This document shows, one piece after another, positions 19,446 through 37,623 of a stretch of 64,000 nt of DNA (positions are counted from its first letter, which is position 1; each line of letters opens with the position of its first letter). The notes beneath the pieces were generated by a model, which was given only the letters and a program-made list of their open reading frames with translations, was not told where the DNA came from and searched no databases. This DNA comes from Stutzerimonas stutzeri (lineage in GTDB: Bacteria > Pseudomonadota > Gammaproteobacteria > Pseudomonadales > Pseudomonadaceae), in assembly GCA_024451105.1 (NCBI GenBank), contig JANGEY010000010.1, positions 13,006-77,005 on the forward strand. The letters run 5' to 3'. The translations under genes and the position numbers were made by a program.

Positions 19446-22398
<2,953 letters not shown>

Positions 22399-22528
22399 CG
22401 GGTCGGTCGGCTCGGAAACGAAGCCGGCAAGCATACAGCAATGCGCGAAGCGCTGCGGTCGGGATCGGGCCGCGCCGGGTTTGCTGGTAACTTATGCCCA
22501 TCCTCAGCTTCCGCGACAAGGAACCGCC

Positions 22529-24935: not shown

Positions 24936-25478
24936 TCAGCCGCGCTCGCCGAGCAGCCACTCCACCGGCAGCTCGTGCTGGCCGCGCTCGTCGGTGACGA
25001 ACAGGGTGCCCTCGCTGATCATCACGCTCCAGGAGAGCGAGCGCGGCAGGTCGCGGGCCAGCTCGGCCAGCGGCTCCTGCGGCAGCGCGGCGATGTTGAG
25101 GTTCTTCAGGCTCTTCACCGCGCCCACCACCTTGTCCTGCCACACGCGCAGGCCGCCATAGGCCAGCACGCTGACCCGCTCGGCGCGCCGCGAGCACCAG
25201 GTCATGCGGTCGGCGTCCGGCTGGCCAACCTCGATCCAGTGCAGCACGCGGTCGTCGAGACTCTTCTCCCACAGCGCCGGCTCGTCGACGTCGGACAGGC
25301 CACGGCCGAAGGCGACCTGCTCGTCGTACCACAGCGCGTAGGCCAGCAGGCGCACGGCCAGGCGCTCCTCGGTTTCCGAGGGGTGCTTGGCGACGGTGAA
25401 GCGCAGGTTCTGGTAGACGCCGCGATCGAGGTCGGTGAGGTTGAGTTCGACTTTGTAGGGGGTGGACTGCAGGGCCAT
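24936..25478 (-). CDS. yaeQ: YaeQ-family protein (PD-(D/E)xK-like fold)
   Basis: 180 aa from MALQSTPYKVELNLTDLDRGVYQNLRFTVAKHPSETEERL... matches YaeQ. The ORF-track N-terminal extension starts at GTG without an RBS. Confidence 0.8.
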   Translation of the reverse strand: MALQSTPYKVELNLTDLDRGVYQNLRFTVAKHPSETEERLAVRLLAYALWYDEQVAFGRGLSDVDEPALWEKSLDDRVLHWIEVGQPDADRMTWCSRRAERVSVLAYGGLRVWQDKVVGAVKSLKNLNIAALPQEPLAELARDLPRSLSWSVMISEGTLFVTDERGQHELPVEWLLGERG

Positions 25479-25597
25479 GGGGCGTTCCGGCGGGGATGGA
25501 AAAGGCCGGCAGTGTAACCGAAAGCGCCCGCCGCCCCGCACTCGTGGCGGCTGCGGCAGGCGCGCGGCTCCGCCAGGTTCGGCGGCACCAGCCGTCC

Positions 25598-28500
25598 TCA
25601 GCCCGGCAGCTCCTCGGCCTTGCCATCGCGCTCACGCGCGCGGCGCAGGCCCAGCTCGCGCATGTCGCGGGACAGTTCGTGCAGGTGCTTGTGGATGCGC
25701 AGGCCGATATCGCCCTTCTTCTCGATGGTCTGGATCAGCGGCAGGAAGCTGGCCTGCAGCGACTGCGCCAGTCCCTCGAGCAGCGCGGCGAAGTCCGGCT
25801 GCGGCGGCGCCGCCACTTGGACGCGCGGGCGCTGCTCGGCCAGCGCCTGCAGGCGCGCCAGCAGCTCCGCCCAGGGCACCGGCGCGGCGACGCCGAGGCC
25901 CTGCACGGCGTCGGCGAGGTCGCGCAGCTGGGCGACCACGCGCACGCCGACGTCGGCCTCGCTGCCGCCCATGGCCTTGGCGCGGCGGAAGTCGGCGCGG
26001 ATCTGTTCCCAGCGCGCCGCCTGCTCGGCCGTCAGGTTGCCGCGCAGCTCGGCGAGCTTGAGCAGGTTCTCCTCGGCGCCGGTGGTGAGCAGCTGCGCCT
26101 CACCCTGGTAGTGGTCGGCGATCAGCTGCAGCAGCTCCTCGTCGTTCATCACCGCGCTGATCTTCTCGGCCATCTTGTTCATGTTGCGGTAGCTGCCCTG
26201 CAGCTTGAACGGCGGCTCGCTGCGGTACTGGTCGGCCTGGGCGGCGCTGGCGATGTACTGCTGGTTGACCCGCAGCACCACGTCGCGCACCTGCATCAGG
26301 CGCTGCAGGGTGGCGGTGATCTCGTCCAGCTCGGCGCCGCTGTAGGCGTGCGAGAGCTGGTTGGCGGAGAACTCGCGGCCCTCGGCCCTAGCCACCAGGC
26401 GGTAGAGGTCGGCCATCTCGCGGGTGGCCAGCGGCGCCAGCACCGGGTTGGAGGTCAGCGCGTTCTCGATGTAGCTGAGCGCGAAGGCCTCCTGCATGCC
26501 GCCGAGGGTGTCGCCGAGGTTGTAGATGTCGGCGCGGTTGGCCAGCATGTCGGGAATCCTGAACACCTCGCCGGACTCGGTGTAGGGGTTGCCGGACATC
26601 ACCACGCAGAACTTCTTGCCGCGCATGTCGTAGGTGCGCGTGCGGCCCTTCCACACCCCCTCGATGCGCCGGGTGCCGTCGCACAGCGAGATGAACTTCT
26701 GCAGGAACTCCGGGTGGGTGTGCTGGATGTCGTCGACGTAGAGCATCACGTTGTTGCCCATCTCCAGCGCCAGGTTGAGCTTCTCCAGCTCCTGGCGGGC
26801 GGTGGCGTCGGGCGCCTGCGCCGGGTCGAGCGAGCGCACCTCGTGGCCGAGCGCCGGGCCGTTGATCTTCATGAAGATCAGCCCCAGGCGGTGGGCGACG
26901 TACTCCATCAGGGTGGTCTTGCCGTAGCCGGGCGGCGAGATGAGCATCAACAGGCCCATCAGGTCGCTGCGCTTGTTCTCCCCGGCGCTGCCCATCTGCT
27001 TGGCCAGGTTGTCGCCGATGAAGGTCAGGTAGACGTCGTTGATCAGCTTGTTGCGCACGAAGGAGCTGAGCGGGCGGGCCTTGAACTCGGCCAGGCGCAG
27101 CGCGGCGCGCTCGCGGGCGATCACCGCCTGGCGCAGCGCCTGGTAGCGGGTCAGGCCCGGCAGGTAGTGCTCGCGGTGCGCGCGCAGGCGGGCGAACAGC
27201 TCGTCCAGCGCCAGCTCCAGCCGCTGTTCCTGGATGCGCGGGTGCTCGCCGAGCAGGCCCTCCACCGTGAAGCGCAGGTCGACCTCGGTGACCCGCCGCG
27301 GCAGGTCCTCGCCGAGCAGTTCGAGCGCCGCCGCCTCGGGCGCGTAGGCGGCCAGCGCGGCGAACTCGGCCTGGCCGCACAGGCCGTGCAGCCAGTCGAG
27401 CGCCAGCCTCCACTGCGCCGCCGGACGCTCGCCCAGCCGGGCCAGCGCCTGGCGGTAGTCGTCCCACATGCGCGCCTCGGTCAGCCGCACGCGCAGGGCG
27501 TCCTGCAGCTGGCGGGCGTACTTGCTGAAGGTGAACTCGATGCGCTCGGCGGCCAGCTCCTGCACCAGGTACTCGGCGGCCTCGGCCACCAGCGCCGTGT
27601 CCAGGTCCAGCGGCTGTTCGGCGAGGAAGGCCTGCAGCGCGGTGGCGATCTCGCCCTGCAGGCTGCGCAGGCCGTCGTCGCGGCCGAACAGCTGGCGGAT
27701 GTGCCGGCTGCTGCGCGCGCGCTCCGGCCACTGCGCCGGCTGCTCCCGGTGGCGCAGGCGCTCCCAGCACAGGCAGGCGAAGGCGCGCGGCAGCGGCGCA
27801 TGGCGCAGCAGCCCGGCGCTGGCGGTCAGCGGCAGCAGGCGGGCGAGGATCGCCGCGGCGTCCTGGTCGTGGATGCCCTTCTCGTAGCCTTCCTTGTAGC
27901 GCGGCGCGGCGAACTCGCGCACCGCGCGCACCAGCGCCTCGGGCTGGGCCAGCAGCAGCCTGAGGCGGTCCAGATCGAGGCCGCCCTCGCCGCGCTCGGC
28001 GGCGGCCAGCACCTCACCGGCCAGGTATTCGCCGCGGTACAGCTCGGCCGACTCCGACTCCAGGCTGGCCTGCCAGAACGCACGCAGCGCCTCCAGCTCG
28101 GCATCGACCAGCGGCTCGATGAAGTCGGTGCCGGTCAGGTGCAGGCACAGCTGCTCGCCGCGCGGCAGCAGGGTCAGGTCCAGTTCCTGGCTGTTGACGC
28201 TGAAGCGGTGGCGGCCGAGGCGGATCAGGTTGCCGCCGGCCTCGAACAGCTCGCTCTTGTCGCGCAGGGCGCGCACCGCCTGGTCGCGGGCGCCCTTGAG
28301 ACGCGCCTCGAGGTCGTCGGCCTTGACGCTGTCCTTCAGCTCGCGCAGGCGCTCGGCCAGGTCGCGCAGCTTGAGGATCAGCGGGTCGGCGGCGAAGAAG
28401 GCGTTGAGTTCCTCCATGCTCGCCAGGCGCGCGGTGCGCCGCGCCAGGCTGTCGAGGATGCGCCGCGCCGCCTCCTGCAGGCCCTGGGCGCGGCGCTGGC

Positions 28501-30820
28501 GCTCGTCGAGCAGCGCCTGCTTGTGGGTCTCGAAGGTCTCCAGCAGCTCCTCGCGCTTGGCGAGGATGTCGGCGAGGAACTGCTCCTGCTCGCCGAAGCG
28601 GCTTTCCAGCTCCTCCAGCTGCAGCAGCAGACGCGCCAGCTGCTCGTCGCAGCGCTCGGGGTCGCTGGCCTGGCCGAGGGCGCTGGTGATGCCCTGGCCG
28701 AACAGCTTGAACTGGGCGCCGAACTGGGCGACCGTCTCCGCCGAGCCGAGGCCCTTGCGGCGCTGCTCGGCGCGGGCGCGCGCCTGGTTGAGGCGCGCGT
28801 ACAGCTCGGAGATCGCCTCGACGATGCGCGTGCGCTCGGTGGCGTCGTCGATCGCCAGGCTGGCCATCAGGTTGGACAGCATGTCCAGATCGGCGGCCAT
28901 CGCCTGCAGGCCGGCCAGCGGCTCGGCCAGCTGGGCGACGCTGGCCGCCTGCTGCGCCGCGCCGTCCAGCGCGGCCAGGCGCTCGGCGTAGGGCGCCAGC
29001 GCCCGCTCGCCGGCGAGGAAGCGCGCGGTGGCCGCGGCGACCCACGCCTGGGCGTCGAGCAGCGCCGCCTCCATGGCGTCGATGCGCGCCACGTCGATGT
29101 AGCGGTAGTCGCGGATGGTCAGCAGCAGGCCGCGCTGGGCGGTCAGCGCGTTGAGCGCCTCGACGAAGGCCGCCACCGCGTCCCAGCTGTCGACGTGCAG
29201 GCCGGCGAGCAGCGCCTGCTGGCGGGTCTCGGCCTCGGCCATCACGCGCGCCGACTGCTGGCGGATGCTCTCGACCTTCTCGAACTCGTCGAGCACCCGC
29301 TCGGCGGTGGCGGCGATCTCGCGCAGCAGCGGCGCCAGCTCGCCGAGCTCGGCGGCGCCCAGCCAGTGGTGGGCGTCGAACAGCCGGCGCACGCTCTGGC
29401 ACAGCTGGCCGTAGCGCTGCACCGACACCGCCCGGGCGTCGATCTCGCGGCACAGGTTGCGCAGCTCGGACACCCCGCGCACCAGCTCGGCGTTGCCGAT
29501 GCGGCCGAGGAAGCCGCTGCGCGGCGGCTGGCGGGCGGCGAACTCGGCGCTGGCGAACGGCGTCTGCCAGATCTGCATCGGGTGGATGCGCGTCGGCTCG
29601 GCGCCCTCGGCGGCGAAGATCACCATGCGCCCGTCCTCCAGGCGCGCGTAGCCGTGGCCGAAGATCGGGCTGTGCAGCTGGCGCTCGATCAGGTTGTAGG
29701 TGAACAGCGCGGAGCGGCCCTCCTCCGGCTGGTAGAACACGTAGAGCACGTCCTCGCCGTTGGGCGAGCGCAGCGCGCGCTTGAAGCGCATGCCGGCCAT
29801 CGGCTGGTCGAAGGTCCGGTAGTCGCCGTTCTGCAGGTAGTAGCCGCCGGGGAAGATGATGCCGTGGTCCTCGGGCAGCTGCACGCAGGCCAGGCCGATG
29901 GCGTCGATGCGCTCGACCTGGCGGGTCAGCGTGTTGAACACCAGGTAGCGCCACTGCTCCTCGCGGTACGGCAGCACCTTGAGCAGCAGCAGGCTGCCGA
30001 GACGGGCGAACTCGATCTGCGCATCGTCGAGCGACTGGGTCTTGTCGACCACCGGCTCGCGGTAGATGCCCAGGCCGTCCTCGGTGTTGTTCTCGACCTT
30101 GATGGTCAGGTCGCCGCCGATGGTCTCGACGAACAGGGTGTCGAGGATGTTGACGTGCGGATGGCGGCCGTTGACCGTCATCTCGCGGCTGGTCTTCTGC
30201 CACTCGAAGTCGTAGGGCGCCGGCAGGGCGATGTCGCGCTCGCCGCGGTTGTCGAGGTAGCGCACCTCGCGGCCGTCGACGGAGATCGACCAGCGGAACA
30301 CGCGGATGTCGCTCAGCCGCTCGCCGATCTGGAAGCTGGCCAAGAGCTTGCCGTCGCGCACCACCAGCTGCAGCAGGCGGGTGTTCTTGTAGTAGGTGTA
30401 CAGCTCGCGGAAGTCTTGCACGAAGCTGGCCTGGCCGAGGAAGCTGTCCGCCAGCGGCTGCGGCTCGGCCTCGTAGCCTTCCTCGGTGTGGTTCAGCCGG
30501 TACAGGGAGAATACGTCCTCGACGCGGGTTTCCTGTTTGAGGCCGAGGAACACGTTGTAGCCGAACAGCAGGCAGTCGCCGACCTGGACGATGTCGCGGG
30601 CGATGCAGTTGTTCTCGCTGCGGATGCGCACCCGGCCGAGCACCGCCATCTCGCTGCTGCCGAACTCGGCCAGGCGCTGCGCGTTGAGGGCGTCGACGCC
30701 CTGGCGCAGGCGCTGGCCCTGCTCGGCCAGCCGGCGCTGCAGCACCTCGTAGGCGCCGCCCTCGGCGACCGCCTGATCCACCCTGTCCTGTTCGCGGCTG
30801 GCGTCCTGGGCATCCGACAT
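25598..30820 (-). CDS. giant (1740-aa) multidomain protein: N-terminal beta-rich domain, long coiled-coil/helical middle, C-terminal AAA+ ATPase; 'DNA-repair ATPase'-annotated family, function unknown
   Basis: Single uninterrupted ORF with SD AGGAAG 9 nt upstream of the ATG. Walker A LISPPGYGKTTLMEY is encoded at about 26912-26930. Walker B VMLYVDDIQH is encoded at about 26727-26750. A sensor-like CVVMSGNPYT and a conserved ...DMLANRADIYNLGD motif are also present. Confidence 0.85.
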   Translation of the reverse strand: MSDAQDASREQDRVDQAVAEGGAYEVLQRRLAEQGQRLRQGVDALNAQRLAEFGSSEMAVLGRVRIRSENNCIARDIVQVGDCLLFGYNVFLGLKQETRVEDVFSLYRLNHTEEGYEAEPQPLADSFLGQASFVQDFRELYTYYKNTRLLQLVVRDGKLLASFQIGERLSDIRVFRWSISVDGREVRYLDNRGERDIALPAPYDFEWQKTSREMTVNGRHPHVNILDTLFVETIGGDLTIKVENNTEDGLGIYREPVVDKTQSLDDAQIEFARLGSLLLLKVLPYREEQWRYLVFNTLTRQVERIDAIGLACVQLPEDHGIIFPGGYYLQNGDYRTFDQPMAGMRFKRALRSPNGEDVLYVFYQPEEGRSALFTYNLIERQLHSPIFGHGYARLEDGRMVIFAAEGAEPTRIHPMQIWQTPFASAEFAARQPPRSGFLGRIGNAELVRGVSELRNLCREIDARAVSVQRYGQLCQSVRRLFDAHHWLGAAELGELAPLLREIAATAERVLDEFEKVESIRQQSARVMAEAETRQQALLAGLHVDSWDAVAAFVEALNALTAQRGLLLTIRDYRYIDVARIDAMEAALLDAQAWVAAATARFLAGERALAPYAERLAALDGAAQQAASVAQLAEPLAGLQAMAADLDMLSNLMASLAIDDATERTRIVEAISELYARLNQARARAEQRRKGLGSAETVAQFGAQFKLFGQGITSALGQASDPERCDEQLARLLLQLEELESRFGEQEQFLADILAKREELLETFETHKQALLDERQRRAQGLQEAARRILDSLARRTARLASMEELNAFFAADPLILKLRDLAERLRELKDSVKADDLEARLKGARDQAVRALRDKSELFEAGGNLIRLGRHRFSVNSQELDLTLLPRGEQLCLHLTGTDFIEPLVDAELEALRAFWQASLESESAELYRGEYLAGEVLAAAERGEGGLDLDRLRLLLAQPEALVRAVREFAAPRYKEGYEKGIHDQDAAAILARLLPLTASAGLLRHAPLPRAFACLCWERLRHREQPAQWPERARSSRHIRQLFGRDDGLRSLQGEIATALQAFLAEQPLDLDTALVAEAAEYLVQELAAERIEFTFSKYARQLQDALRVRLTEARMWDDYRQALARLGERPAAQWRLALDWLHGLCGQAEFAALAAYAPEAAALELLGEDLPRRVTEVDLRFTVEGLLGEHPRIQEQRLELALDELFARLRAHREHYLPGLTRYQALRQAVIARERAALRLAEFKARPLSSFVRNKLINDVYLTFIGDNLAKQMGSAGENKRSDLMGLLMLISPPGYGKTTLMEYVAHRLGLIFMKINGPALGHEVRSLDPAQAPDATARQELEKLNLALEMGNNVMLYVDDIQHTHPEFLQKFISLCDGTRRIEGVWKGRTRTYDMRGKKFCVVMSGNPYTESGEVFRIPDMLANRADIYNLGDTLGGMQEAFALSYIENALTSNPVLAPLATREMADLYRLVARAEGREFSANQLSHAYSGAELDEITATLQRLMQVRDVVLRVNQQYIASAAQADQYRSEPPFKLQGSYRNMNKMAEKISAVMNDEELLQLIADHYQGEAQLLTTGAEENLLKLAELRGNLTAEQAARWEQIRADFRRAKAMGGSEADVGVRVVAQLRDLADAVQGLGVAAPVPWAELLARLQALAEQRPRVQVAAPPQPDFAALLEGLAQSLQASFLPLIQTIEKKGDIGLRIHKHLHELSRDMRELGLRRARERDGKAEELPG

Positions 30821-30985
30821 CGTTGTTCTTCCTGAAGATTGCGCGGGAAATGGGGGCTCGCGGTAGGTTCCCCCCCACTCGCGACTGCTCGCGAATGGGG
30901 GGCATCTCCCGCGCAGGCCTCCGTTGGTGGGCTAAAGCCCAGCCTACGGGCGGGCAGCAGGCGGCCCCGGACGGGGCCGCCACGC

Positions 30986-33031
30986 TCAGGCCGGGGTCTT
31001 GTCGACCGCTGCCGGCACGCTCTTGGCCTCGGCGCCCTTGCCGGCCATCAGCCGGCCCAGCACTTCCTGGACCACCGGGCTCTTGCCGACCACGCCCTCG
31101 ATGGCCTTGCCCACCGACAGCGACTTGGCGAAGGAGTTGAAGAAGTCGCCCTCGCCGCCGACGATCTCGATCTTCGCCTTGGACAGCGCGGCGGACAGCA
31201 CCTCGGCCTGCTCCTTGGCGATTTCCTGGTTGGCGGCGATACCGGCCATCGAGGCCTCGAAGTCCTTCTCCAGCTGCATGCGGAACTCCTCGTGCTGGCG
31301 GGCGCTGTCGCTGAGTTCGTCGAGCGCGCCGAACTTCTTGCCCAGGCCCTCGGCCTCGGCATTGAAGCGCTGCAGCAGCACCTCGGCCTCGGCCAGGCCG
31401 AGGTCCTTGGTGGCCTTGGCCTTGGCGCTGCCCAGCTGTTCCTCGCCGCGCGCCTGGGCGCCGAGCTTCTCCTCGAGCACCCGGGCCTCGGCCAGGCCGT
31501 CCTTCTCCTTGGCCGCCGCCTGCGCCTCGATGATCCGCGCCTGGGCCAGGCCCTTCTCCTGCTCGCCGCGGGCCTCGGCGGCCAGCTGTTCGGCCAGCAC
31601 GCGAGCCTCGGCCAGCCCCTCCTTCTCCTTGGCCGCCGCGGTCACCTCGCGCACCCGCGCATCGGCCAGGCCCGGCGCGGCGCGCTCGGCCTCGATGCCC
31701 TCGGCCAGCTTGCGCTTGGCCTCGGCCTGCTTGGCCGCCGCTTCCAGCTCGGCCTGGGCCATGACGTTGACCTCGACCGCCTTGTGCTTGGCGCGCGTCT
31801 CGTCGGCCTCGGCCTGCTTGACCTGGCGCACCAGCTCCTGCTCGGCCTCGGCCTGGGCGTTGAGCACGGCGACCTGCTTGAGCCGTTCGGCCTCGGACAC
31901 CTCGCGCACTTCCTTGATGCGCTCCTCCTCCTGGGCCACGGTCTTCTCCACCGCCACCCGCTCGCGGATCACGTTGGCGATGTTCTTGCGCTGCTCTTCC
32001 AGCGCCTTCTCCTTCTCGATGCGCTGCAGCTCGACCTCGCGCTCGCGGGCGACGATCTCCAGCTCGCGGGCGCGGGTGACCTTCTCCTCCTCGATCACCA
32101 CCGCGCGCTGGCGGTTCTGCTGCGCCACCTCGACCTCGCGCTGGTGGTTCTCGGCGCGGATATCCAGCTCCTGCTGGGTCTGGATGCGCGCCTGCTCGGC
32201 CTTGAGGCGCTCCTCCTCCTGCACCTTGAGGGTCTCGGCCTGCTCGCGGGCGCGCAGGGTGGCGATCTCACGCTGCTGGCGCGCCTCGGCGTCGGCCTGC
32301 TGGCGCTCCAGGGCCAGGGTCGCCTCGCGGGTCTCGACGTTCTTCTTCTTGATCGCCAGTTCCTCGTTGCGCTCCAGGTCGTTGGTGATCACGTTCTGCG
32401 CCGCGGTCAGTTCGGTGATCTTGCGGATGCCCTGGGCGTCGAGGATGTTGGTCGGGTCCAGCGAGCTCTTCGGCGTCTGCTCCAGGTAGTCGATGGCCAC
32501 GTCCTCCAGCACGTAGCCGTTGAGGTCGTTGCCGATCACCTCGACGATGCGGTCGCGGAAGTTCTGCCGCTCCTCGAACAGCTGAACGAAGTCGAAGCGC
32601 TTGCCGACGGTCTTCAGCGCCTCGGAGAACTTGGCGTTGAACAGGTCGTTGACCGCCGCGCGGTCGGAGGCGCGTTCGGCGCCGATGGCCTTGGCCACCT
32701 TGAGCACGTCCTGCTGGGTCTCGTTGACGCGCAGGTAGAAGGCCACGGTGATGTCGGCGCGCAGGTTGTCCTGGCAGATCAGGCCGTCCTTGCCGCGGCG
32801 GTCGATCTCCAGGGTGATCAGGGAGATCTTCATGAACTCCTTCTTGTAGATCACCGGGTAGACCAGCGCGCCGGTGAAGTGCACCTTGGGCTGCGCCGAC
32901 ATGTCGTTGACGATCAGCGCGGTGCCCTGCGGCACCTTGATGTAGAAGGCCTTGAACAGCACGAAGAAACCGAGGATCAGCAGGAAGACCACGCCGACGC
33001 CGGTCGCGAAGGGCATCAGAATCTCGAACAT
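30986..33031 (-). CDS. flotillin-like SPFH/band-7 protein (YqiK-like), unusually long (681 aa)
   Basis: N-terminal TM helix, an SPFH domain, and a very long Glu/Ala/Arg/Lys coiled-coil region containing a 40-aa tandem duplication. Confidence 0.9.
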   Translation of the reverse strand: MFEILMPFATGVGVVFLLILGFFVLFKAFYIKVPQGTALIVNDMSAQPKVHFTGALVYPVIYKKEFMKISLITLEIDRRGKDGLICQDNLRADITVAFYLRVNETQQDVLKVAKAIGAERASDRAAVNDLFNAKFSEALKTVGKRFDFVQLFEERQNFRDRIVEVIGNDLNGYVLEDVAIDYLEQTPKSSLDPTNILDAQGIRKITELTAAQNVITNDLERNEELAIKKKNVETREATLALERQQADAEARQQREIATLRAREQAETLKVQEEERLKAEQARIQTQQELDIRAENHQREVEVAQQNRQRAVVIEEEKVTRARELEIVAREREVELQRIEKEKALEEQRKNIANVIRERVAVEKTVAQEEERIKEVREVSEAERLKQVAVLNAQAEAEQELVRQVKQAEADETRAKHKAVEVNVMAQAELEAAAKQAEAKRKLAEGIEAERAAPGLADARVREVTAAAKEKEGLAEARVLAEQLAAEARGEQEKGLAQARIIEAQAAAKEKDGLAEARVLEEKLGAQARGEEQLGSAKAKATKDLGLAEAEVLLQRFNAEAEGLGKKFGALDELSDSARQHEEFRMQLEKDFEASMAGIAANQEIAKEQAEVLSAALSKAKIEIVGGEGDFFNSFAKSLSVGKAIEGVVGKSPVVQEVLGRLMAGKGAEAKSVPAAVDKTPA

Positions 33032-33061
33032 TTTCTTTTCATCTCCTTATGGACGTACGGC

Positions 33062-33700
33062 TCAGAGGCCCTTGAATTCGTCTTCGCCGACCACCCGGTA
33101 GGCGTGCTCGCCCTCCAGGTACTGCAGCAGCACCACGCGGTCGCCACGGCGGAAGCCCGCCGACTCGTCGGCGCGGATGCGCAGGATCAGCCCGGCGCCC
33201 TGGTCGTCCAGGTCGGCCTCGCCGAAGCGCGGGCTGACCGTGCCGCTGCGCACCGTCGCCACCTGGCCGAGCAGCGAGCGCGCCGAGGGCGCCTCGACCT
33301 TGCGGAACAGCCGGCGCAGCGGCCGGCACAGCGCGCCGGTCAGCGGCACCGCCGGCAGCAGGGCCACCGCCATCACCGCCAGGCCGAGCGGATAGCGCAG
33401 CCAGCCGAGCGGCAGGTGGCGCAGCAGCAGCAACTCGACGAAGTAGCTGGCGAACCAGGCGAAGAACACCAGCAGGGTCAGCACCAGGGTCACCGGCACG
33501 CCACCCAGGCCGAGCTTGAGCAGCAGGCCAGCCAGCCCCTCCAGTTCGAGGCCCTCGCCGTCCGGGCCGAAGTCGCCGTCGAGCACGTCGATCTCGAGAA
33601 TGCCCAGCGCGGCGATCAGCCAGTAGAGGATCGCCAGGCACAGCAGGAAGCTGAACAGCACGGTGGGAAACGCCAGGGCGCTGTGCAGGAAGAGTTCCAT
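33062..33700 (-). CDS. NfeD-like / YqiJ-like inner-membrane protein (flotillin partner)
   Basis: 212 aa with 3-4 N-terminal TM helices and a C-terminal soluble beta-rich (OB-like) domain. It lies 30 nt upstream of the flotillin gene on the same strand. Confidence 0.75.
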   Translation of the reverse strand: MELFLHSALAFPTVLFSFLLCLAILYWLIAALGILEIDVLDGDFGPDGEGLELEGLAGLLLKLGLGGVPVTLVLTLLVFFAWFASYFVELLLLRHLPLGWLRYPLGLAVMAVALLPAVPLTGALCRPLRRLFRKVEAPSARSLLGQVATVRSGTVSPRFGEADLDDQGAGLILRIRADESAGFRRGDRVVLLQYLEGEHAYRVVGEDEFKGL

Positions 33701-33773
33701 CGTGTTCCGTCCGTGAAACCGTAGAGACCGCGCCCAGGCAAGGCCTGGGCGCGGCGAGGATTGCCGGGCAGTC

Positions 33774-34475
33774 TCAGCTTGCGCCCTGCGCCGCCCTGTC
33801 CTTCAGGCGCGCCAGCACGCTGGCGGCGCTGCCGTTGTCGGGAACGATGCCGGCAGCGCGCAGCTTGCTGTCCAGACTCGCCTCCGGCTGCTCGGCGGCC
33901 AGCTCGGCCTCGGCCTCCAGGCGCGCCGCACGTTCGGCCTGGCGCTGCTTGATGCGCTCCAGCGACTCCACCGCGGTGTGCAGCCTGGCCTGCGAGCCGC
34001 CGTGGCGTTGCGCCACCGCCAGCTGGGCGCGCTGCACGCTTTCGGTGGCCTTGACCGTGTCGACCTGCTGCTTGAGACGGCGGATGTGCCCCTCGGCCTG
34101 ACTGACCGCCTGGCGCAGGCGCGCCACGCTGGCGGCGAAACCCGCCGCCTGCTCGCGGTCGGCGGCCAGCTCGGCTTCCAGGGTGGCGATCTTCTCCGCC
34201 ACTTCGGTGGCCAGCGTCTCGTTGTCGGCGGCCAGCGCCTTGAGGGCGTACTGCTCGTACTCGGCGACCTTGACCTCACCCTTGCCCACCCGCTCGCTGG
34301 CCAGTTTCTGCCTGGCCATGATCTGTGCCAGCGCCTCGCGCGACTGGCGCAGCTCCTGGTCTGCGTCGCGGATTTCCTGGTCGAGGATGCGCAGCGCCTG
34401 GCTGTCCACCAGCGCCTCGCCCACCTCGTTGGCGCCGCCGCGCAGGGCGGTCAGCAGCTTGCTCCAGACGTTCAT
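33774..34475 (-). CDS. PspA/IM30 (Vipp1, bacterial ESCRT-III-like) family protein, YjfJ-like
   Basis: 233 aa, all-helical coiled coil starting MNVWSKLLTALRGGANEVGEALVDSQALRILDQEIRDADQ, with PspA-family heptads. The size matches E. coli YjfJ. Its start overlaps the upstream gene's stop (ATGA). Confidence 0.85.
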   Translation of the reverse strand: MNVWSKLLTALRGGANEVGEALVDSQALRILDQEIRDADQELRQSREALAQIMARQKLASERVGKGEVKVAEYEQYALKALAADNETLATEVAEKIATLEAELAADREQAAGFAASVARLRQAVSQAEGHIRRLKQQVDTVKATESVQRAQLAVAQRHGGSQARLHTAVESLERIKQRQAERAARLEAEAELAAEQPEASLDSKLRAAGIVPDNGSAASVLARLKDRAAQGAS

Positions 34476-35104
34476 GCGCGGCTCTCCTCGACAGCGGGAA
34501 GCAGGAACTCCTCGTAGGCCTCGGTGGCCTTGATCACGTTGTCGGCGAGGGTTTCGATCTCGCAGACCACGTCGGCCAGGCTGGCGGCGGCGCTCAGCGC
34601 GCCGAACATCAGGTAGCAGGAGCGACCGTCGGGGAGGGTCTCCAGGCCGATGCTGGAGAGCGGGAACAGCTTGTGGGTGCGCAGCACCTGCTCGTTGAAG
34701 GCCGCCGCATCGCGCACGTCGGCCTGCGGCCAGAGCAGCGCCTCGACCAGGATCTGCTCGCCGACCACGGCGACGAACAGCGGCAGGTCGCCGTAGTCGT
34801 GCAGGGTCAGGTGCAGGCTGGGGTCGGCGCCCTGCAGCAGCTCCATGCTGGCGCGCCCGGCGCGCAGCAGCTCGACGTTGGCCAGCGCTTCGTACAGCTC
34901 GCCGGTGCTCCACAACCTGGGCATGTGCATACCCCCCTCCTCCGTTGAGGCCAAGCCCGCAGCGGGCTGGCGCAGTTTCCGTTCCATGACCGCGAGCGCG
35001 GCGGCGTGCTCGGGCCGAATCCACACTTCCTTCTTCACCAGCCCCTGCTCGCGCAGGCGCTGGCGGTACAGGCGCTGGTAATGGGCCGACGATTTGCTGT
35101 CCAT
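34472..35104 (-). CDS. DUF2170/YjfI-like protein (first gene of module); true start possibly internal (M59/M61)
   Basis: ORF of 210 codons. A strong SD GGAGGAGGGGGG precedes internal ATGs at 34930/34924, giving a 150-152 aa product typical of YjfI. The annotated longest start (35104) has poor SD spacing, yet the N-terminal 58 aa look protein-like. Confidence 0.55.
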   Translation of the reverse strand: MDSKSSAHYQRLYRQRLREQGLVKKEVWIRPEHAAALAVMERKLRQPAAGLASTEEGGMHMPRLWSTGELYEALANVELLRAGRASMELLQGADPSLHLTLHDYGDLPLFVAVVGEQILVEALLWPQADVRDAAAFNEQVLRTHKLFPLSSIGLETLPDGRSCYLMFGALSAAASLADVVCEIETLADNVIKATEAYEEFLLPAVEESRA

Positions 35105-35258
35105 GCCTCGAGGCTAGAGCATCACATGTGTGAAAACCATGTCTTACATGTGGGGTTTTCGCCAAGCCGCGCACAGAATCGACACGAGGCCTCGGTCCCC
35201 TCGCCGCGCCGCGCGCAATCGCCTAGGCTTGGCCATCCCATCGCCCCACGGAGTCGCC

Positions 35259-36458
35259 ATGTCCCTGCCCGTCAAACCCCTCGCCGGCCTCAAGGTCATC
35301 GAGCTCGGCACCCTGATCGCCGGCCCCTTCGCCGCGCGGATCTGCGCCGAGTTCGGCGCCGAAGTGATCAAGATCGAGTCGCCCGACGGCGGCGATCCAC
35401 TGCGCAAGTGGCGCAAGCTGTACGAGGGCACCTCGCTGTGGTGGTTCGTGCAGGCGCGCAACAAGCAGTCGCTGACCCTCAACCTCAAGCACCCCGAGGC
35501 GCGCGAGATCCTCGAACAGCTGGTGACCGAGGCGGACATCGTCATCGAGAACTTCCGTCCCGGCGTGCTGGAGAAGCTCGGCCTCGGCTGGGAACGGCTG
35601 CACGCGCTCAACCCGAAGCTGGTGATGGTACGCCTGTCCGGCTTCGGCCAGAGCGGACCGCTGAAGGACCAGCCGGGTTTCGGCGCGGTCGGCGAGTCGA
35701 TGGGCGGGCTGCGCTACATCACCGGCTTCGCGGACCGCCCGCCGGTACGCACCGGCATCTCCATCGGCGACTCGATCGCCGCGCTGTGGGGGGTGATCGG
35801 CGCGCTGATGGCGCTGCGCCACCGCGAGGTCAACGGCGGCCGCGGCCAGGTGGTCGACGTGGCGCTGTACGAGGCGGTGTTCGCCATGATGGAGAGCCTG
35901 GTGCCGGAGTTCGACGTGTTCGGCTTCATCCGCGAGCGCACCGGCAACATCATGCCCGGCATCACCCCCTCCTCCATCCACACCAGCGCCGACGGCAGGC
36001 ACGTGCAGATCGGCGCCAACGGCGACGCGATCTTCCGGCGCTTCATGCTGGCGATCGGCCGCCACGACCTGGCCGAGGATCCGTCCCTGGCCGACAACGC
36101 CGGGCGCGATGCGCGGCGCGACGAGCTGTACGGGGTGATCGACCGCTGGGTGCAGTCGCTGCCGCTGGATACGGTGCTGGCGGTGCTCGCCCAGGCCGAG
36201 GTACCGGCCAGCCGCATCTACAGCGTCGAGGACATGTTCGGCGACCCGCAGTTCCTCGCCCGCGACATGCTGCAGAAGGCGAAGCTGCCCGATGGCCGGG
36301 AATTTCGCATGCCCGGCATCGTGCCGAAACTCTCCGAGACGCCCGGCGGCACCGAATGGATCGGCCCGCAGCTGGGCGAGCACACCGCGGCGATCCTCGA
36401 ACGGCTGGGCTACGATGCCGGACGCATCGCCGCGCTCAAGGCGGCCGGCGCGGTGTAG
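35259..36458 (+). CDS. CoA-transferase family III (CaiB/BaiF) protein
   Basis: MSLPVKPLAGLKVIELGTLIAGPFAARICAEFGAEVIKIE... is the canonical family III N-terminus. The conserved catalytic Asp region is present. Confidence 0.85.
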   Translation: MSLPVKPLAGLKVIELGTLIAGPFAARICAEFGAEVIKIESPDGGDPLRKWRKLYEGTSLWWFVQARNKQSLTLNLKHPEAREILEQLVTEADIVIENFRPGVLEKLGLGWERLHALNPKLVMVRLSGFGQSGPLKDQPGFGAVGESMGGLRYITGFADRPPVRTGISIGDSIAALWGVIGALMALRHREVNGGRGQVVDVALYEAVFAMMESLVPEFDVFGFIRERTGNIMPGITPSSIHTSADGRHVQIGANGDAIFRRFMLAIGRHDLAEDPSLADNAGRDARRDELYGVIDRWVQSLPLDTVLAVLAQAEVPASRIYSVEDMFGDPQFLARDMLQKAKLPDGREFRMPGIVPKLSETPGGTEWIGPQLGEHTAAILERLGYDAGRIAALKAAGAV

Positions 36459-36459
36459 T

Positions 36460-37623
36460 TCAGGCCAGCCCGGGGCGCGGCTGGCGGCGCACGGTTGACC
36501 AGCCGTGGCAAGCCGGGCACTGCCAGTACAGCTGGCGGGACTGGAAGCCGCAGTGATGGCAGCGGTAGGCCGGCGCGCTGGCCAGCAGACTGGCCAGCGC
36601 CTCGCGCAGCGGCGACAGCTGGGCCCGGCACGCCTCCGGCGCGCGGTCGCGCTGGTAGTCGAGCAGACGCAGCATCAGCGGCAGCGACGGCTGGCGGGCC
36701 AGGCACTGCTGCAGATGCTCGATGGCCGCCGTGCTGCCCAGGCGCTGGGCGATCAGCTCGGCCAAGGCCAGCTGCAGCGGATCGGCGCGCCGGGCGTCGA
36801 AACGCTCGAGGATCGCCCCGAGCACCTGTTCGAGGCGCAAACGCGCCTCGTCGCCTGCGGCGTACTGCAGCAGCTGCGGCAGGGCCTCGGGAAACAGCTC
36901 GGCATCCTGCTCCACCACCTGCAGCAACTGGCGGATGGCCGCATCGGTGCGCCCCGTCTGCCAGTCGAGGCGGGCGAGGATCAGGCTGGCGCGCACGCAG
37001 GCCGGATCGCGACGCAGCGCGCGCTGCAGCAGCGGCCGCGCCGCCTCGGCCTCGCGTCGACGCAACTGCTGCTCGGCCAGCTCGCAATGGTAGTGGGCGG
37101 CGGCCACCCGCACGGCCGGCTCCAGCTCGCTGAGGCGGATGCCGACCTCTACGGCCTTCTGCCACTCGCGCTCGCGCTCATAGATGCGCTGCAGGCTGCG
37201 CAGGGCCTGCGGGGTGACCGCGGCGGCGCTGTCGACCAGATTCTGCAGCAGGGGTTCGGCACGCGACAGCTCGCCGGCGGAGAGGAAGTCGTTGGCCAGC
37301 TCGAGCTGCGCGCGCTCCTGCTGGGGACGCCCCAGCTCGGGGCGGGTCAGCAGGTTCTGGTGCACCTCGGTGGCCTTGGCCAGCTCGCCGCGCAGGCGGA
37401 ACTGGCGACCGACGCCGAGGTGAGTCTCGAAGGTCTCGTTGCTGACCTCCAGCGCCTCGACCAGGCGCTGCAGCACGGCGTCGGGCTGCTCGTCGAGCAG
37501 ATGGTTGTTGCTGATCGCCACGGCGGCACGACGCTGCAACAGCGGCTGGCGCTCCCGCCGCCCGAGCCACCAGCCACAGCCGATGGCCAGCATGAACAGG
37601 ACGAGCCAGAGCAGCTCGTGCAT
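36460..37623 (-). CDS. lapB: lipopolysaccharide assembly protein B (TPR + C-terminal rubredoxin-like CxxC pairs)
   Basis: N-terminal TM helix, TPR repeats, and C-terminal CHHCGF...CPACHGW metal-binding motifs, as in LapB/YciM. Confidence 0.85.
   Translation of the reverse strand: MHELLWLVLFMLAIGCGWWLGRRERQPLLQRRAAVAISNNHLLDEQPDAVLQRLVEALEVSNETFETHLGVGRQFRLRGELAKATEVHQNLLTRPELGRPQQERAQLELANDFLSAGELSRAEPLLQNLVDSAAAVTPQALRSLQRIYEREREWQKAVEVGIRLSELEPAVRVAAAHYHCELAEQQLRRREAEAARPLLQRALRRDPACVRASLILARLDWQTGRTDAAIRQLLQVVEQDAELFPEALPQLLQYAAGDEARLRLEQVLGAILERFDARRADPLQLALAELIAQRLGSTAAIEHLQQCLARQPSLPLMLRLLDYQRDRAPEACRAQLSPLREALASLLASAPAYRCHHCGFQSRQLYWQCPACHGWSTVRRQPRPGLA

What the first reader, a model, noticed from the sequence alone, without database searches (positions are those of the whole stretch)
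25598..35104. Five-gene, same-strand membrane module: YjfI-like + PspA/IM30 (ESCRT-III-like) + NfeD/YqiJ-like + long flotillin + 1740-aa AAA+ giant
All five genes are on the minus strand, with an ATGA overlap (yjfI-like/pspA-like) and short gaps of 73, 30 and 165 nt. In E. coli the yjfIJ pair and the yqiJK (NfeD-flotillin) pair are separate loci of unknown function. Here they are fused into one unit and followed by a giant protein with a C-terminal AAA+ ATPase. PspA/IM30/Vipp1 proteins are ESCRT-III homologues that polymerise on membranes. Flotillin with NfeD organises membrane microdomains. A large AAA+ ATPase encoded alongside an ESCRT-III-like polymer is reminiscent of Vps4-type remodelling. 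The module could therefore be a membrane-repair or envelope-stress, or a membrane-targeted abortive-infection-type defence system. A PD-(D/E)xK-like YaeQ gene lies immediately downstream on the same strand. I recall, but cannot verify here, that a PspA-homologue-containing four-gene 'biofilm-associated cluster' has been described in P. aeruginosa. The mechanism, and the role of the giant ATPase, are to my knowledge uncharacterised.
Basis: partly seen in the sequence, partly recalled or inferred. Interest (0 to 1): 0.85.

Follow-up and report, generated by a model that had tools for sequence, protein, structure and literature searches.

The report
Known Pseudomonas bac membrane-stress operon
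This five-gene cluster is the already published Pseudomonas "bac" operon, which pairs a PspA-type membrane-repair protein and a flotillin scaffold with a giant ATP-driven motor; how it works is still unknown, and the motor follows the flotillin, not PspA.

Summary
Five minus-strand genes at 25598-35104 have spacings of -4 (ATGA), 73, 30 and 165 nt. They encode a YjfI/DUF2170 protein (the NCBIfam equivalog model for BacA), a YjfJ-type PspA, a 3-TM YqiJ/NfeD-like protein, a YqiK-type flotillin and a 1740-aa DUF3686-DUF7902-AAA+ protein.

This is not new. It is the orthologue of P. aeruginosa bacABCDE (PA3732-PA3728). That cluster was shown to be one transcript by RT-PCR and is co-regulated (Wallart 2024), and the same neighbourhood is described by Ravi et al. 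2024.

What I add:
- In 80 species the giant sits next to the flotillin in all 77 evaluable loci. The PspA pair is present in only 48. The trio also occurs in Bacteroidota and Planctomycetota.
- The ATPase fold is of the dynein/midasin/MoxR class, not the Vps4 class.
- YaeQ is not part of the module. The real sixth gene in P. aeruginosa is an HKD phospholipase D, which is absent here.
- BacA carries a conserved basic N-terminal module that the PAO1/PA14 annotation leaves out. Paired ACATGT palindromes lie upstream of bacA, and there is no sigma-54 site.

I found no evidence for an anti-phage defence role. The mechanism remains inferred.

The parts
35105..35160 (-). Promoter/operator region upstream of bacA. 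Two ACATGT palindromes sit at 35124-35129 and 35146-35151, 22 bp apart. A -10-like TAGCCT follows, about 8 nt before the ATG.
   Evidence: Sequence. At least 2 ACATGT copies lie within 130 nt upstream of bacA in 39 of 46 loci, against 0.012 expected; the spacing is mostly 22-24 bp, and the last copy starts 24-27 nt before the start codon in 35 loci. No sigma-54 consensus within 2 mismatches lies in this region.
34472..35104 (-). bacA: YjfI/DUF2170 CesT-like chaperone domain (residues 65-201) preceded by a conserved basic N-terminal module (residues 1-46) and a variable linker.
   Evidence: Pfam DUF2170, 170.6 bits. NCBIfam BacA equivalog, 327 bits against cut-off 300. The N-module is the best conserved part across 33 homologues. 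27 of 31 N-modules weakly match NCBIfam UrfF 'plasmid repression protein F'. 33% identity to E. coli YjfI, which lacks the module.
33774..34475 (-). bacB: PspA/IM30 (ESCRT-III-like) protein of the YjfJ subfamily. Its ATG overlaps the bacA stop (ATGA).
   Evidence: Pfam PspA_IM30, 174.2 bits. 37% identity over 227 aa to E. coli YjfJ, E 4e-35.
33062..33700 (-). bacC: 3-TM YqiJ/short-NfeD-like inner-membrane protein with a soluble C-terminal domain of about 80 aa.
   Evidence: TM segments at 14-32, 63-81 and 107-125. hhalign against E. coli YqiJ: 93.3% probability, E 2.7e-7. Only weak Pfam YqiJ_N hits, in 7 of 26 homologues. Named DUF1449/OB-fold protein by NCBI.
30986..33031 (-). bacD: flotillin of the YqiK type, with an N-terminal TM helix, an SPFH/Band-7 domain, a long Ala/Glu/Lys-rich coiled coil and a C-terminal region.
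   Evidence: TM at 8-26. Band_7, 30.4 bits on residues 32-180 when scanned alone, with 27 of 27 homologues matching. hhalign against E. coli YqiK: 99.9% probability, E 1.1e-31, 31% identity.
30821..30985 (-). bacD-bacE spacer. It holds two strong GC-rich hairpins with no T-run, so it is probably a transcript-stabilising or attenuating structure rather than an intrinsic terminator.
   Evidence: MFE -99.2 kcal/mol, z -6.78 against shuffles. Sequence. No terminator-like site was called here.
25598..30820 (-). bacE: 1740-aa cytoplasmic giant. It consists of a beta-rich DUF3686 (38-485), helical regions including DUF7902 (607-689), a conserved middle domain, and a dynein/MoxR-class AAA+ module whose alpha/beta domain spans about 1290-1435. 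Motifs: Walker A GYGKTT at 1298-1303, Walker B DD at 1363-1364, sensor-1 N1411, R1429. A helical C-terminal region follows.

Best explanation
The region is the orthologue, in a Pseudomonas of the P. linyingensis group, of the published P. aeruginosa bac operon (bacABCDE = PA3732-PA3728). It lacks the sixth gene, bacF (an HKD phospholipase D). It is a chromosomal inner-membrane stress and maintenance module.

Shown here or in the cited papers:
- the gene identities;
- one transcript and co-regulation in P. aeruginosa;
- induction by osmotic shock and by phage infection;
- obligate linkage of the giant ATPase with the flotillin/NfeD-like pair across phyla;
- a dynein/MoxR-class AAA+ fold.

Inferred mechanism:
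1. BacD (flotillin) and BacC (YqiJ/NfeD-like) build an SPFH scaffold on the cytoplasmic face of the inner membrane.
2. BacB (PspA, ESCRT-III-like) polymerises on stressed membrane.
3. BacA holds BacB through its CesT-like domain. Through its conserved basic N-terminal module it probably also represses the operon at the paired ACATGT operators.
4. BacE, a soluble giant, uses ATP to assemble, disassemble or reshape the flotillin/NfeD assembly and, where PspA is present, to couple it to the PspA polymer.
For: Identity:
- NCBIfam BacA equivalog above its cut-off.
- The P. aeruginosa giant is 77% identical.
- P. paraeruginosa locus L008 has the same gene order, with 63-86% identity for each protein.

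Published evidence:
- Four-gene bac cluster; PA3731 mutant defective in biofilm, swarming and virulence; osmotic induction (PMC2587700).
- RT-PCR across all junctions from bacA to PA14_16200, and 6-13-fold co-accumulation of BacB-F in a bacA::Tn mutant (PMC10948618).
- PA3728-PA3732 up-regulated in all phage-infected samples (PMC12041424).
- Predicted BacA-BacB complex (PMC13092808).
- The same neighbourhood described by comparative genomics (PMC11237479).

Linkage:
- Flotillin adjacent to the giant in 77 of 80 loci, the NfeD-like gene in 74 of 80, and the PspA pair in 48 of 80.
- The same trio in Flavobacterium, Sphingobacterium, Planctomycetota and unclassified MAGs.
- Accessory genes are all membrane- or lipid-related: rhomboid in 26 loci, PLD in 33, TelA-like in 20.

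ATPase:
- Walker A, Walker B, sensor-1 and the arginine are invariant in 75 sequences.

Topology: BacC has 3 TM segments, BacD has 1, BacE has none.

Regulation:
- ACATGT pairs in 39 of 46 loci, and none upstream in loci that lack bacA.
- The N-module is conserved and resembles a small plasmid repressor family.
- E. coli YjfI lacks both the module and the motif.
- The clade with the variant operator (TTTCATGTAAG...CTTACATGAAA) also has variant residues at positions 7-10 of the module.
Against: - No biochemical function is known for any Bac protein. The published phenotypes (biofilm, rhamnolipid, swarming) are indirect, and deleting the flotillin (PaFlo3) lowered biofilm by only about 20% (PMC13086221).
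- The N-terminal third of the giant could not be modelled. The single-sequence AF2 run gave pLDDT 37, and no internal repeat was found. Its binding partner is therefore unknown.
- Walker B is DD rather than the usual DE, so hydrolysis kinetics may be unusual.
- The BacA-repressor idea rests on weak family matches (20 bits against a cut-off of 100) and on co-occurrence. The up-regulation seen in bacA::MAR2xT7 could be transposon read-through.
- The published proposal of a sigma-54 promoter conflicts with my sigma-70/operator reading, and neither has been tested by transcription start mapping.
Confidence: 0.8

Rival explanations
1. BacE is the bacterial counterpart of Vps4. Its main job would be to disassemble or turn over the ESCRT-III-like BacB/PspA polymer, with flotillin and NfeD acting only as a platform.
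For: PspA and the giant share an operon in 48 of 80 proteobacterial loci and in Bacteroidota and Planctomycetota. Ravi et al. compare bacterial PspA-AAA+ linkages with Snf7/Vps4, though for other AAA+ families (PMC11237479). All five genes are co-induced (PMC10948618, PMC12041424).
Against: - About 26 complete loci (Stenotrophomonas, Xanthomonas, Xenorhabdus, Pragia, Longimicrobium and others) keep NfeD-flotillin-giant without any adjacent PspA.
- In locus L089 the PspA gene next to the giant is followed by its own classical AAA gene.
- No MIT or Vps4_C domain was found.
Confidence: 0.2
2. The module is an anti-phage (abortive-infection type) defence system that acts on the membrane.
For: PA3728-PA3732 are up-regulated in all phage-infected P. 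aeruginosa samples (PMC12041424). Some versions carry an HKD/PLD-family protein, a fold also used by defence nucleases.
Against: - PADLOC gives only E of about 1e-3 coiled-coil matches to LmuB and JetC.
- The locus sits at a fixed chromosomal position next to the same CoA-transferase gene in 12 other species of Pseudomonas and allied genera.
- The surrounding genes are ordinary chromosomal genes (LapB, carboxyltransferase).
- Proteins are 55-79% identical across orders, and the P. aeruginosa cluster holds 3222 near-identical sequences. That pattern fits a conserved chromosomal gene, not a patchy defence island.
- Induction by phage is what a 'phage shock' envelope response does anyway.
Confidence: 0.05
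3. The giant is a DNA-repair ATPase, as databases name it. Its position next to membrane genes would then be incidental, and it would be functionally tied to YaeQ and RecJ downstream.
For: The Pfam DUF3686 description and NCBI name it 'DNA repair ATPase'. RuvB is the top Foldseek and sequence hit for the P-loop region. YaeQ follows here, and RecJ follows YaeQ in P. paraeruginosa.
Against: - The RuvB similarity is generic to AAA+ proteins: target-normalised TM-score (TMt) 0.37 against 0.58-0.60 for NorQ and CbbQ.
- No nucleic-acid-binding domain was detected.
- YaeQ adjacency occurs in 16 of 80 loci, at offsets of roughly 0.7-8 kb, with rhomboid, PLD or GGDEF genes in between.
- Linkage to flotillin/NfeD holds in every evaluable genome and across phyla.
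- I found no paper giving experimental support for the name.
Confidence: 0.03

Closest known systems
P. aeruginosa bac (biofilm-associated cluster) operon bacABCDEF, PA3732-PA3727 / PA14_16140-16200 (Mace 2008; Wallart 2024)
   Same: Same five families in the same order and on the same strand. The giant is 77% identical, the flotillin 86%, PspA 71%, NfeD-like 67% and BacA 63%. The same divergent CoA-transferase neighbour and the same ACATGT pair lie upstream of bacA.
   Different: The window lacks bacF, the 235-aa HKD/PLD protein that directly follows the giant in P. paraeruginosa. It also lacks the rhomboid gene found in many other Pseudomonas. YaeQ therefore abuts the giant. The published BacA work used a form that starts at an internal Met and lacks the conserved N-terminal 46 residues.
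CesT/Tir-PspA + band-7/flotillin + YqiJ/YuaF + novel AAA+ neighbourhood of Ravi et al. 2024 (mSystems, PMC11237479)
   Same: Exactly this gene set. That paper also notes the optional PLD and the abbreviated operons without PspA, both of which I re-found independently.
   Different: That paper gives no ATPase clade, no quantified co-occurrence and no regulatory element. It describes the N-terminus as coiled coil plus beta-propeller, which I could not verify.
E. coli yjfIJ and yqiJK loci
   Same: BacB/YjfJ 37% identity; BacA C-terminal domain/YjfI 33%; BacD/YqiK profile match at 99.9%; BacC/YqiJ at 93%.
   Different: In E. coli the two pairs are about 1.2 Mb apart. yjfIJ continues into polyamine-related genes (yjfKLMC). 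There is no giant ATPase. YjfI lacks the N-terminal module, and there is no ACATGT pair upstream.
MoxR-class AAA+ remodellers (CbbQ-CbbO, NorQ-NorD, RavA-ViaA), dynein and midasin AAA modules
   Different: No VWA/MIDAS partner gene is present in the operon. About 1290 extra N-terminal residues and more than 300 further C-terminal residues are present. Walker B is DD. The partner proteins are a flotillin and an NfeD-like protein.
ESCRT-III / Vps4
   Same: A polymerising ESCRT-III-fold protein (PspA) is encoded with an AAA+ ATPase, and a membrane-remodelling logic is plausible.
   Different: The ATPase belongs to a different AAA+ clade and has no MIT domain. It is retained where PspA is absent.
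HflK/C-FtsH (SPFH cage enclosing an AAA+ machine)
   Same: An SPFH-family scaffold is genetically and functionally coupled to an AAA+ ATPase at the inner membrane.
   Different: FtsH is a membrane-anchored classical-clade AAA protease, and the HflK/C bulk is periplasmic. BacE is soluble and has no detected protease domain, and the BacD bulk is predicted to be cytoplasmic. The analogy rests on general knowledge and was not tested here.

Membership tests
bac operon of Pseudomonas (bacABCDEF) | BacA orthologue (NCBIfam equivalog NF050185) as the first gene | tested here: met
   327.1 bits against a cut-off of 300, covering residues 1-201 of 210.
bac operon of Pseudomonas (bacABCDEF) | Gene order YjfI-like, PspA, NfeD-like, flotillin, giant ATPase on one strand, orthologous to PA3732-PA3728 | tested here: met
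   Same order and 63-86% identity for each protein in P. paraeruginosa L008. The giant is 77% identical to the P. aeruginosa protein.
bac operon of Pseudomonas (bacABCDEF) | Sixth gene bacF (PA14_16200) downstream of the giant | tested here: not met
   The gene after the giant in L008 is a 235-aa HKD/PLD protein. tblastn finds it in 33 loci but not in the window. The window therefore holds a five-gene version.
bac operon of Pseudomonas (bacABCDEF) | Co-transcription as one mRNA | not testable with these tools
   Shown by RT-PCR only in P. aeruginosa PA14 (PMC10948618). Here I can say only that the spacings are compatible, that no terminator was called, and that hairpins without a T-run lie in the 165-nt spacer.
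PspA/IM30 (ESCRT-III superfamily) | Full-length match to the PspA_IM30 profile | tested here: met
   174.2 bits, residues 2-229 against model positions 1-219 of 220. 37% identity to E. coli YjfJ.
PspA/IM30 (ESCRT-III superfamily) | Polymerisation on membranes and membrane remodelling | not testable with these tools
   Known for PspA and Vipp1 from the literature. Not shown for BacB.
Flotillin / SPFH (YqiK type) | SPFH/Band-7 domain after an N-terminal membrane anchor | tested here: met
   TM at 8-26. Band_7, 30.4 bits against cut-off 23.6 on residues 32-180, with 27 of 27 homologues matching.
Flotillin / SPFH (YqiK type) | Homology to a named bacterial flotillin through the coiled-coil region | tested here: met
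   hhalign against E. coli YqiK: 99.9% probability, E 1.1e-31, 402 columns, 31% identity. No solved-structure match by sequence.
NfeD / YqiJ (DUF1449) | Multi-TM N-terminal part plus a soluble C-terminal OB-like domain, encoded directly upstream of an SPFH gene | tested here: met
   Three TM segments plus a tail of about 80 aa. Lies directly upstream of the flotillin in 74 of 80 loci. hhalign against E. coli YqiJ: 93.3% probability, E 2.7e-7.
NfeD / YqiJ (DUF1449) | Significant match to the Pfam NfeD or YqiJ models | tested here: inconclusive
   The window protein has no hit. YqiJ_N matches 7 of 26 homologues (best E 0.0019) and NfeD matches 2 of 26 (E 0.24). The OB fold was not modelled.
Vps4-type (classical/meiotic clade) AAA ATPase | N-terminal MIT domain and C-terminal Vps4 oligomerisation domain | tested here: not met
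   Pfam finds only DUF3686, DUF7902 and AAA_5/AAA (P-loop part).
Vps4-type (classical/meiotic clade) AAA ATPase | ATPase fold closest to Vps4, spastin or katanin | tested here: not met
MoxR / dynein-related AAA+ (Pfam AAA_5) | Near full-length AAA_5 match, with Walker A, Walker B, sensor-1 Asn and arginine in the AAA_5 layout | tested here: met
   AAA_5, 24.9 bits against cut-off 22, model positions 2-125 of 139. GYGKTT, DD, GNP and ANR are invariant in 75 sequences. Walker B is DD instead of DE.
MoxR / dynein-related AAA+ (Pfam AAA_5) | Structural neighbours are MoxR-class proteins | tested here: met
MoxR / dynein-related AAA+ (Pfam AAA_5) | Cognate VWA-domain partner encoded nearby | tested here: not met
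   No VWA family appears among the operon proteins or the listed neighbours in the window or in six distant loci.
Known anti-phage defence systems (PADLOC-DB v2) | Significant match of any component to a defence-system model | tested here: not met
   Only LmuB and JetC coiled-coil matches at E 3e-4 to 2e-3.
Classical Psp system (pspF-pspABC, sigma-54 dependent) | PspF, PspB and PspC partners and a sigma-54 promoter | tested here: not met
   No such genes are in the cluster. No TGGCAC-N5-TTGCW within 2 mismatches lies upstream of bacA in the window, nor within 3 mismatches on the coding strand of L008 between 5579 and 6250.

The most novel reading that the evidence does not exclude
Two linked ideas.

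1. BacE is a dedicated ATP-driven remodeller of bacterial flotillin/NfeD (SPFH) assemblies. It would be a dynein/MoxR-class machine, with PspA as an optional client or effector. This would give bacteria an energy-dependent flotillin cycle that has not been described.

2. BacA is a bifunctional repressor-chaperone. Its overlooked N-terminal module would bind the paired ACATGT operators, and its CesT-like domain would bind BacB. Sequestration of PspA at damaged membrane would then switch the operon on, a partner-switch analogous to PspA-PspF but built from unrelated parts.
Probability: 0.3. Interest if true: 0.7.

Novelty: already known. Interest (0 to 1): 0.35.

Why it matters
The locus itself is an orthologue of a published operon, so finding it is not news. 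It still matters as a system for two reasons. No ATPase is known to drive bacterial flotillin or PspA dynamics; a 2025 review states that a Vps4-like ATPase appears absent in bacteria (PMC7619361). And bac mutants of P. aeruginosa are impaired in biofilm formation, swarming and virulence.

Four points from this work redirect experiments on an existing model system:
- The giant follows the flotillin/NfeD pair rather than PspA.
- Its motor is of the dynein/MoxR class.
- The studied BacA lacked its most conserved segment.
- The promoter carries conserved palindromic operators rather than a recognisable sigma-54 site.

These points do not establish a new kind of system.

Tried and rejected
- Single-sequence AlphaFold of giant residues 1-520 gave pLDDT 37 and was discarded. 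This used one of the two prediction jobs, so the N-terminal domain stays unmodelled.
- An hhalign self-comparison of residues 50-440 found no internal repeat, so the beta-propeller description could not be confirmed.
- Profile searches against PDB sequences with the giant, flotillin, flotillin N-terminus, NfeD-like and BacA N-module alignments found nothing significant.
- Full-length Pfam and NCBIfam scans missed the flotillin entirely. Scanning the N-terminal 240 aa alone solved this.
- Pfam on the isolated BacA N-module gave nothing.
- The sigma-54 consensus search gave chance-level counts and no site upstream of bacA. I therefore do not adopt the published sigma-54 proposal.
- The sigma-70 and terminator scan found no promoter and no terminator inside the operon.
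- PADLOC gave only coiled-coil noise, so the defence reading was rejected.
- Literature searches for DUF3686 and for UrfF returned nothing usable.
- YaeQ as a module member was rejected on synteny.

Full report
**1. Observation**

The spacings are -4 (ATGA), 73, 30 and 165 nt. A further 56 nt separate the giant from a YaeQ ORF at 24936-25541.

Pfam and NCBIfam give these assignments:
- First gene: DUF2170/YjfI, 170.6 bits. It also passes the NCBIfam equivalog model 'biofilm formation regulator BacA' (327 bits, cut-off 300).
- Second gene: PspA_IM30, 174 bits.
- Giant: DUF3686 (38-485), DUF7902 (607-689) and AAA_5/AAA (1291-1414).
- Downstream ORF: YaeQ, 213 bits.

The 681-aa and 212-aa proteins gave no hit when scanned whole. 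For the 681-aa protein this is an artefact of the Ala/Glu/Lys-rich coiled coil (66% A/E/K/R/Q over residues 221-620).
- Its first 240 residues alone match Band_7/SPFH above the cut-off, as do 27 of 27 homologues.
- Its profile matches E. coli YqiK at 99.9% probability (E 1e-31).

The 212-aa protein has three TM segments. Its profile matches E. coli YqiJ at 93% probability (E 2.7e-7). Direct Pfam YqiJ_N and NfeD matches are weak.

The exact protein sequences exist in NCBI as MCQ4348451-55. There they are named DNA repair ATPase, flotillin family protein, DUF1449 family protein, PspA/IM30 family protein and YjfI family protein.

**2. What it is**

The BacA equivalog hit led to the literature.
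- Mace et al. 2008 (PMC2587700) defined the P. aeruginosa 'biofilm-associated cluster' PA3729-PA3732. The PspA-like PA3731 is induced by osmotic shock, and its mutant is defective in biofilm, swarming, rhamnolipid production and virulence.
- Wallart et al. 2024 (PMC10948618) showed RT-PCR products across every junction from bacA to PA14_16200. All five downstream proteins, including PA14_16190 (BacE) and PA14_16200 (BacF), rose 6-13-fold in a bacA transposon mutant. They renamed the unit bacABCDEF.
- Ravi et al. [quoted passage not shown] They noted a PLD in some Proteobacteria and abbreviated versions without PspA.
- Later papers name the flotillin PaFlo3 and its partner a short NfeD, and find only about a 20% biofilm drop on deletion (PMC13086221).
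- Another predicts a BacA-BacB complex (PMC13092808).
- Another finds PA3728-PA3732 up-regulated in all phage-infected samples (PMC12041424).

The window's giant is 77% identical to the P. aeruginosa protein. P. paraeruginosa locus L008 shows the same order, with 63-86% identity for each protein. The finding is therefore an orthologue of a published operon. Its closest genome in the collection is P. linyingensis (93% identity for the giant).

**3. Is the giant really linked?**

I scanned one genome per species for relatives of the giant and obtained 80 loci. They come from Pseudomonadales, Xanthomonadales, Enterobacterales, Orbales, Cellvibrionales, Burkholderiales and Longimicrobium. Counts:

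| Gene next to the giant | Loci (of 80) | Comment |
|---|---|---|
| Flotillin, directly upstream | 77 | the 3 misses are contig ends |
| NfeD-like | 74 | |
| YjfI-PspA pair | 48 | absent in e.g. Stenotrophomonas, Xanthomonas, Xenorhabdus, Pragia, Limnobaculum, Longimicrobium |
| YaeQ | 16 | Pseudomonas-type genera only (Pseudomonas and genera recently split from it), roughly 0.7 to 8 kb downstream |

Distant relatives of the giant (28-35% identity) were traced through a representative search and a second homologue search. Their neighbourhoods were:
- Flavobacterium litorale: CesT_Tir_1 - PspA - 212 aa - 686 aa - 586 aa - giant.
- Sphingobacterium deserti: CesT_Tir_1 - PspA - DUF4177 - 227 aa - 703 aa - giant.
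- A Planctomycetota MAG: PspA - PspA - YqiJ_N - 662 aa - giant.
- An unclassified MAG: CesT_Tir_1 - 239 aa - 219 aa - 722 aa - giant, followed by DUF4178, a 242-aa protein, DUF350 and a spermine synthase.
- A metagenomic contig: 212 aa - 647 aa - giant - TelA.
- Another contig: 268 aa - 687 aa - giant - PspA - a separate classical AAA protein.

The constant partner of the giant is the NfeD-like/flotillin pair, and PspA is a frequent but dispensable addition. The family is moderately large: 930 clusters at 50% identity with E <= 1e-3, mostly 1600-1900 aa.

**4. Downstream genes**

In P. paraeruginosa the gene that starts two bases after the giant's stop codon encodes a 235-aa HKD/phospholipase-D protein, and YaeQ and RecJ come after it. 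BacF is therefore the PLD, not YaeQ.

| Gene class downstream of the giant | Where found |
|---|---|
| HKD/PLD | 33 of 80 loci; not in the window |
| Rhomboid-family protein, about 185 aa | directly after the giant in 26 loci; not in the window |
| TelA-like protein plus a coiled-coil protein | 20 loci of the Xanthomonadales clade, and locus L083 |
| GGDEF protein | P. linyingensis (L001) |

The window has none of these, so YaeQ abuts the giant by default. All of the accessory genes are membrane- or lipid-related, which argues against the database name 'DNA repair ATPase'. I found no experimental basis for that name.

**5. The giant**

It has no TM segment. A single-sequence AlphaFold run on residues 1-520 failed (pLDDT 37). 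No internal repeat was detectable, so the N-terminal fold remains unverified.

I then built a 75-sequence alignment that includes Bacteroidota and Planctomycetota relatives. With it, residues 841-1740 modelled at pLDDT 85.5 and pTM 0.72.

| Method | Hit | Score |
|---|---|---|
| Foldseek | NorQ and CbbQ | highest target-normalised TM-scores, 0.58-0.60 |
| Foldseek | RuvB | 0.37, despite the best E-value |

The motif layout (GYGKTT, VDDIQH, GNPYT, ANRAD) follows the AAA_5 pattern and is invariant in all 75 sequences. Walker B is an unusual DD. A beta-hairpin directly before the sensor-1 strand appears in the model.

The motor is therefore of the dynein/midasin/MoxR class and not a Vps4-type classical AAA. 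MoxR-class ATPases are known as remodellers or maturases that usually work with VWA partners (general knowledge). No VWA gene is present here.

**6. Regulation (not part of the original finding)**

Upstream of bacA the window has two ACATGT palindromes, at 35124 and 35146.
- The same pair occurs in 39 of 46 evaluable loci from Gamma- and Betaproteobacteria. The usual form is YYACATGTRA, spaced 22-24 bp, with the last copy starting 24-27 nt before the start codon.
- The background is 0.088 per kb, which gives 0.012 expected per stretch.
- A -35-like TTGACA or TTGATT often lies between the copies, and a TAnnnT hexamer lies about 7-10 nt before the ATG. This suggests an operator-controlled sigma-70 promoter with a very short leader.
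- Loci without bacA have no ACATGT upstream of the NfeD-like gene.
- I found no sigma-54 consensus upstream of bacA in the window or in P. paraeruginosa. This is at odds with the putative RpoN site proposed in the two bac papers.

BacA itself begins with a 46-residue basic segment (KSSAxYQRxxRxRLREQGLVKKEVWILPE...).
- It is the most conserved part of the protein across 33 homologues.
- It is absent from E. coli YjfI.
- It weakly but consistently resembles the NCBIfam family 'plasmid repression protein F' (27 of 31 members, best E 2e-6, far below the cut-off).
- The clade with a variant operator (TTTCATGTAAG...CTTACATGAAA) also has variant residues at positions 7-10.
- In Bacteroidota, where the chaperone lacks this segment, a divergent XRE-type HTH gene sits next to the operon in 3 of 3 loci.

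The P. aeruginosa literature treats PA3732 as a 16-kDa protein, and 139 residues were crystallised. This corresponds to a start at an internal Met near residue 58 of the 206-aa ORF in L008. The segment has therefore apparently not been studied.

My inference is that BacA is both the operon's repressor and the chaperone of BacB. One caveat applies: the up-regulation seen in bacA::MAR2xT7 could be transposon read-through.

**7. Mechanism and rivals**

Best-supported reading (identity firm, mechanism inferred):
- It is a chromosomal inner-membrane stress and maintenance module.
- BacD and BacC form an SPFH scaffold on the cytoplasmic face of the membrane.
- BacB forms an ESCRT-III-like polymer.
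- BacA chaperones BacB and probably autoregulates the operon.
- BacE supplies ATP-driven remodelling, aimed primarily at the flotillin/NfeD assembly.

Rivals:
- The Vps4-like reading (BacE dedicated to PspA) is weakened by the PspA-less loci, by the locus where PspA has its own AAA protein, and by the AAA+ clade.
- The defence reading has no support. PADLOC is negative, the chromosomal position beside the same CoA-transferase gene is fixed in 12 other species of Pseudomonas and allied genera, the neighbours are ordinary chromosomal genes, and conservation is high. Phage induction is expected of an envelope-stress response.
- The 'DNA repair' reading rests on a name only.

**8. Verdict**

The novelty class is already known. 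The system is still mechanistically open, so it keeps some interest. That interest belongs to an existing, named model system, not to a discovery in this window.

Noticed in passing
window 35105-35160 (minus strand); ACATGT at 35124-35129 and 35146-35151; also loci L001-L077 upstream of bacA: A pair of palindromic YYACATGTRA motifs about 22 bp apart lies immediately upstream of bacA. It is conserved in 39 of 46 loci across Gamma- and Betaproteobacteria (expected 0.012 per stretch) and is absent where bacA is absent. The layout looks like an operator-controlled sigma-70 promoter with a near-leaderless transcript. No sigma-54 consensus is present, despite the published proposal.
   Followed up: yes
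window 34967-35104 (BacA residues 1-46); L008 5722-5895: BacA starts with a highly conserved basic module that is missing from E. coli YjfI. It also appears to be missing from the PAO1/PA14 gene model (16 kDa; 139 residues crystallised), which seems to start at an internal Met. The module weakly resembles the NCBIfam 'plasmid repression protein F' family. The idea: a DNA-binding autorepressor fused to the chaperone.
   Followed up: partly
window 25542-25597; L008 15243-15950; L002 15253-15810; L026 downstream of the giant; L001 15311-16549: The 3' end of the operon varies between genomes: HKD/PLD (bacF) in 33 of 80 loci, a rhomboid-family protein in 26, TelA-like plus a coiled-coil protein in 20, and a GGDEF protein in P. 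linyingensis. The window has none of these, so YaeQ follows the giant after 56 nt.
   Followed up: partly
window 30821-30985 (minus strand): The 165-nt bacD-bacE spacer folds into two very stable GC hairpins (MFE -99.2 kcal/mol, z -6.8) with no T-run. This could set different levels of flotillin and giant ATPase from one transcript. In other Pseudomonas the spacer is about 150-950 nt.
   Followed up: no
window 26729-26734 (BacE D1363-D1364): Walker B of the giant is DD rather than the usual DE, and this is invariant in 75 homologues down to about 40% identity. It is a family hallmark that may mean slow or regulated hydrolysis.
   Followed up: no
L089 12454-14941: In one metagenomic locus the giant is followed by a PspA gene and a separate 579-aa classical AAA (PF00004) protein. 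PspA seems to bring its own ATPase there.
   Followed up: no
L082 127-891, L087 1798-2571, L088 1923-2579: In three of three loci of the CesT_Tir_1 type (two Bacteroidota, one unclassified MAG), a divergently transcribed XRE-type HTH gene sits next to the CesT_Tir_1-PspA start of the operon. One of these carries a Peptidase_S24 domain. It is a candidate regulator that would replace the BacA N-terminal module.
   Followed up: no
whole window (GC 0.66-0.75); window 25598-35104: The exact proteins are deposited under 'Stutzerimonas stutzeri' (MCQ4348451-55). The closest relatives, however, are P. linyingensis, Geopseudomonas sagittaria and Pseudomonas sp. AN-1, and the window's GC is about 69%. 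The source assembly may be mislabelled or may be a bin.
   Followed up: partly
window 30986-33031: Method note: full-length Pfam, NCBIfam and PDB searches return nothing for the flotillin because of its long low-complexity coiled coil. Scanning the N-terminal 240 aa alone recovers the SPFH domain.
   Followed up: yes
window 35262-36458 (+), 36460-37623 (-), 20113-23976 (+): The neighbours are ordinary chromosomal genes: a family III CoA-transferase divergent from bacA (conserved in 12 other species of Pseudomonas and allied genera), LapB (TPR plus rubredoxin-type zinc ribbon), and an ORF with a carboxyltransferase C/D domain. No mobile-element or defence-island signs were seen.
   Followed up: partly
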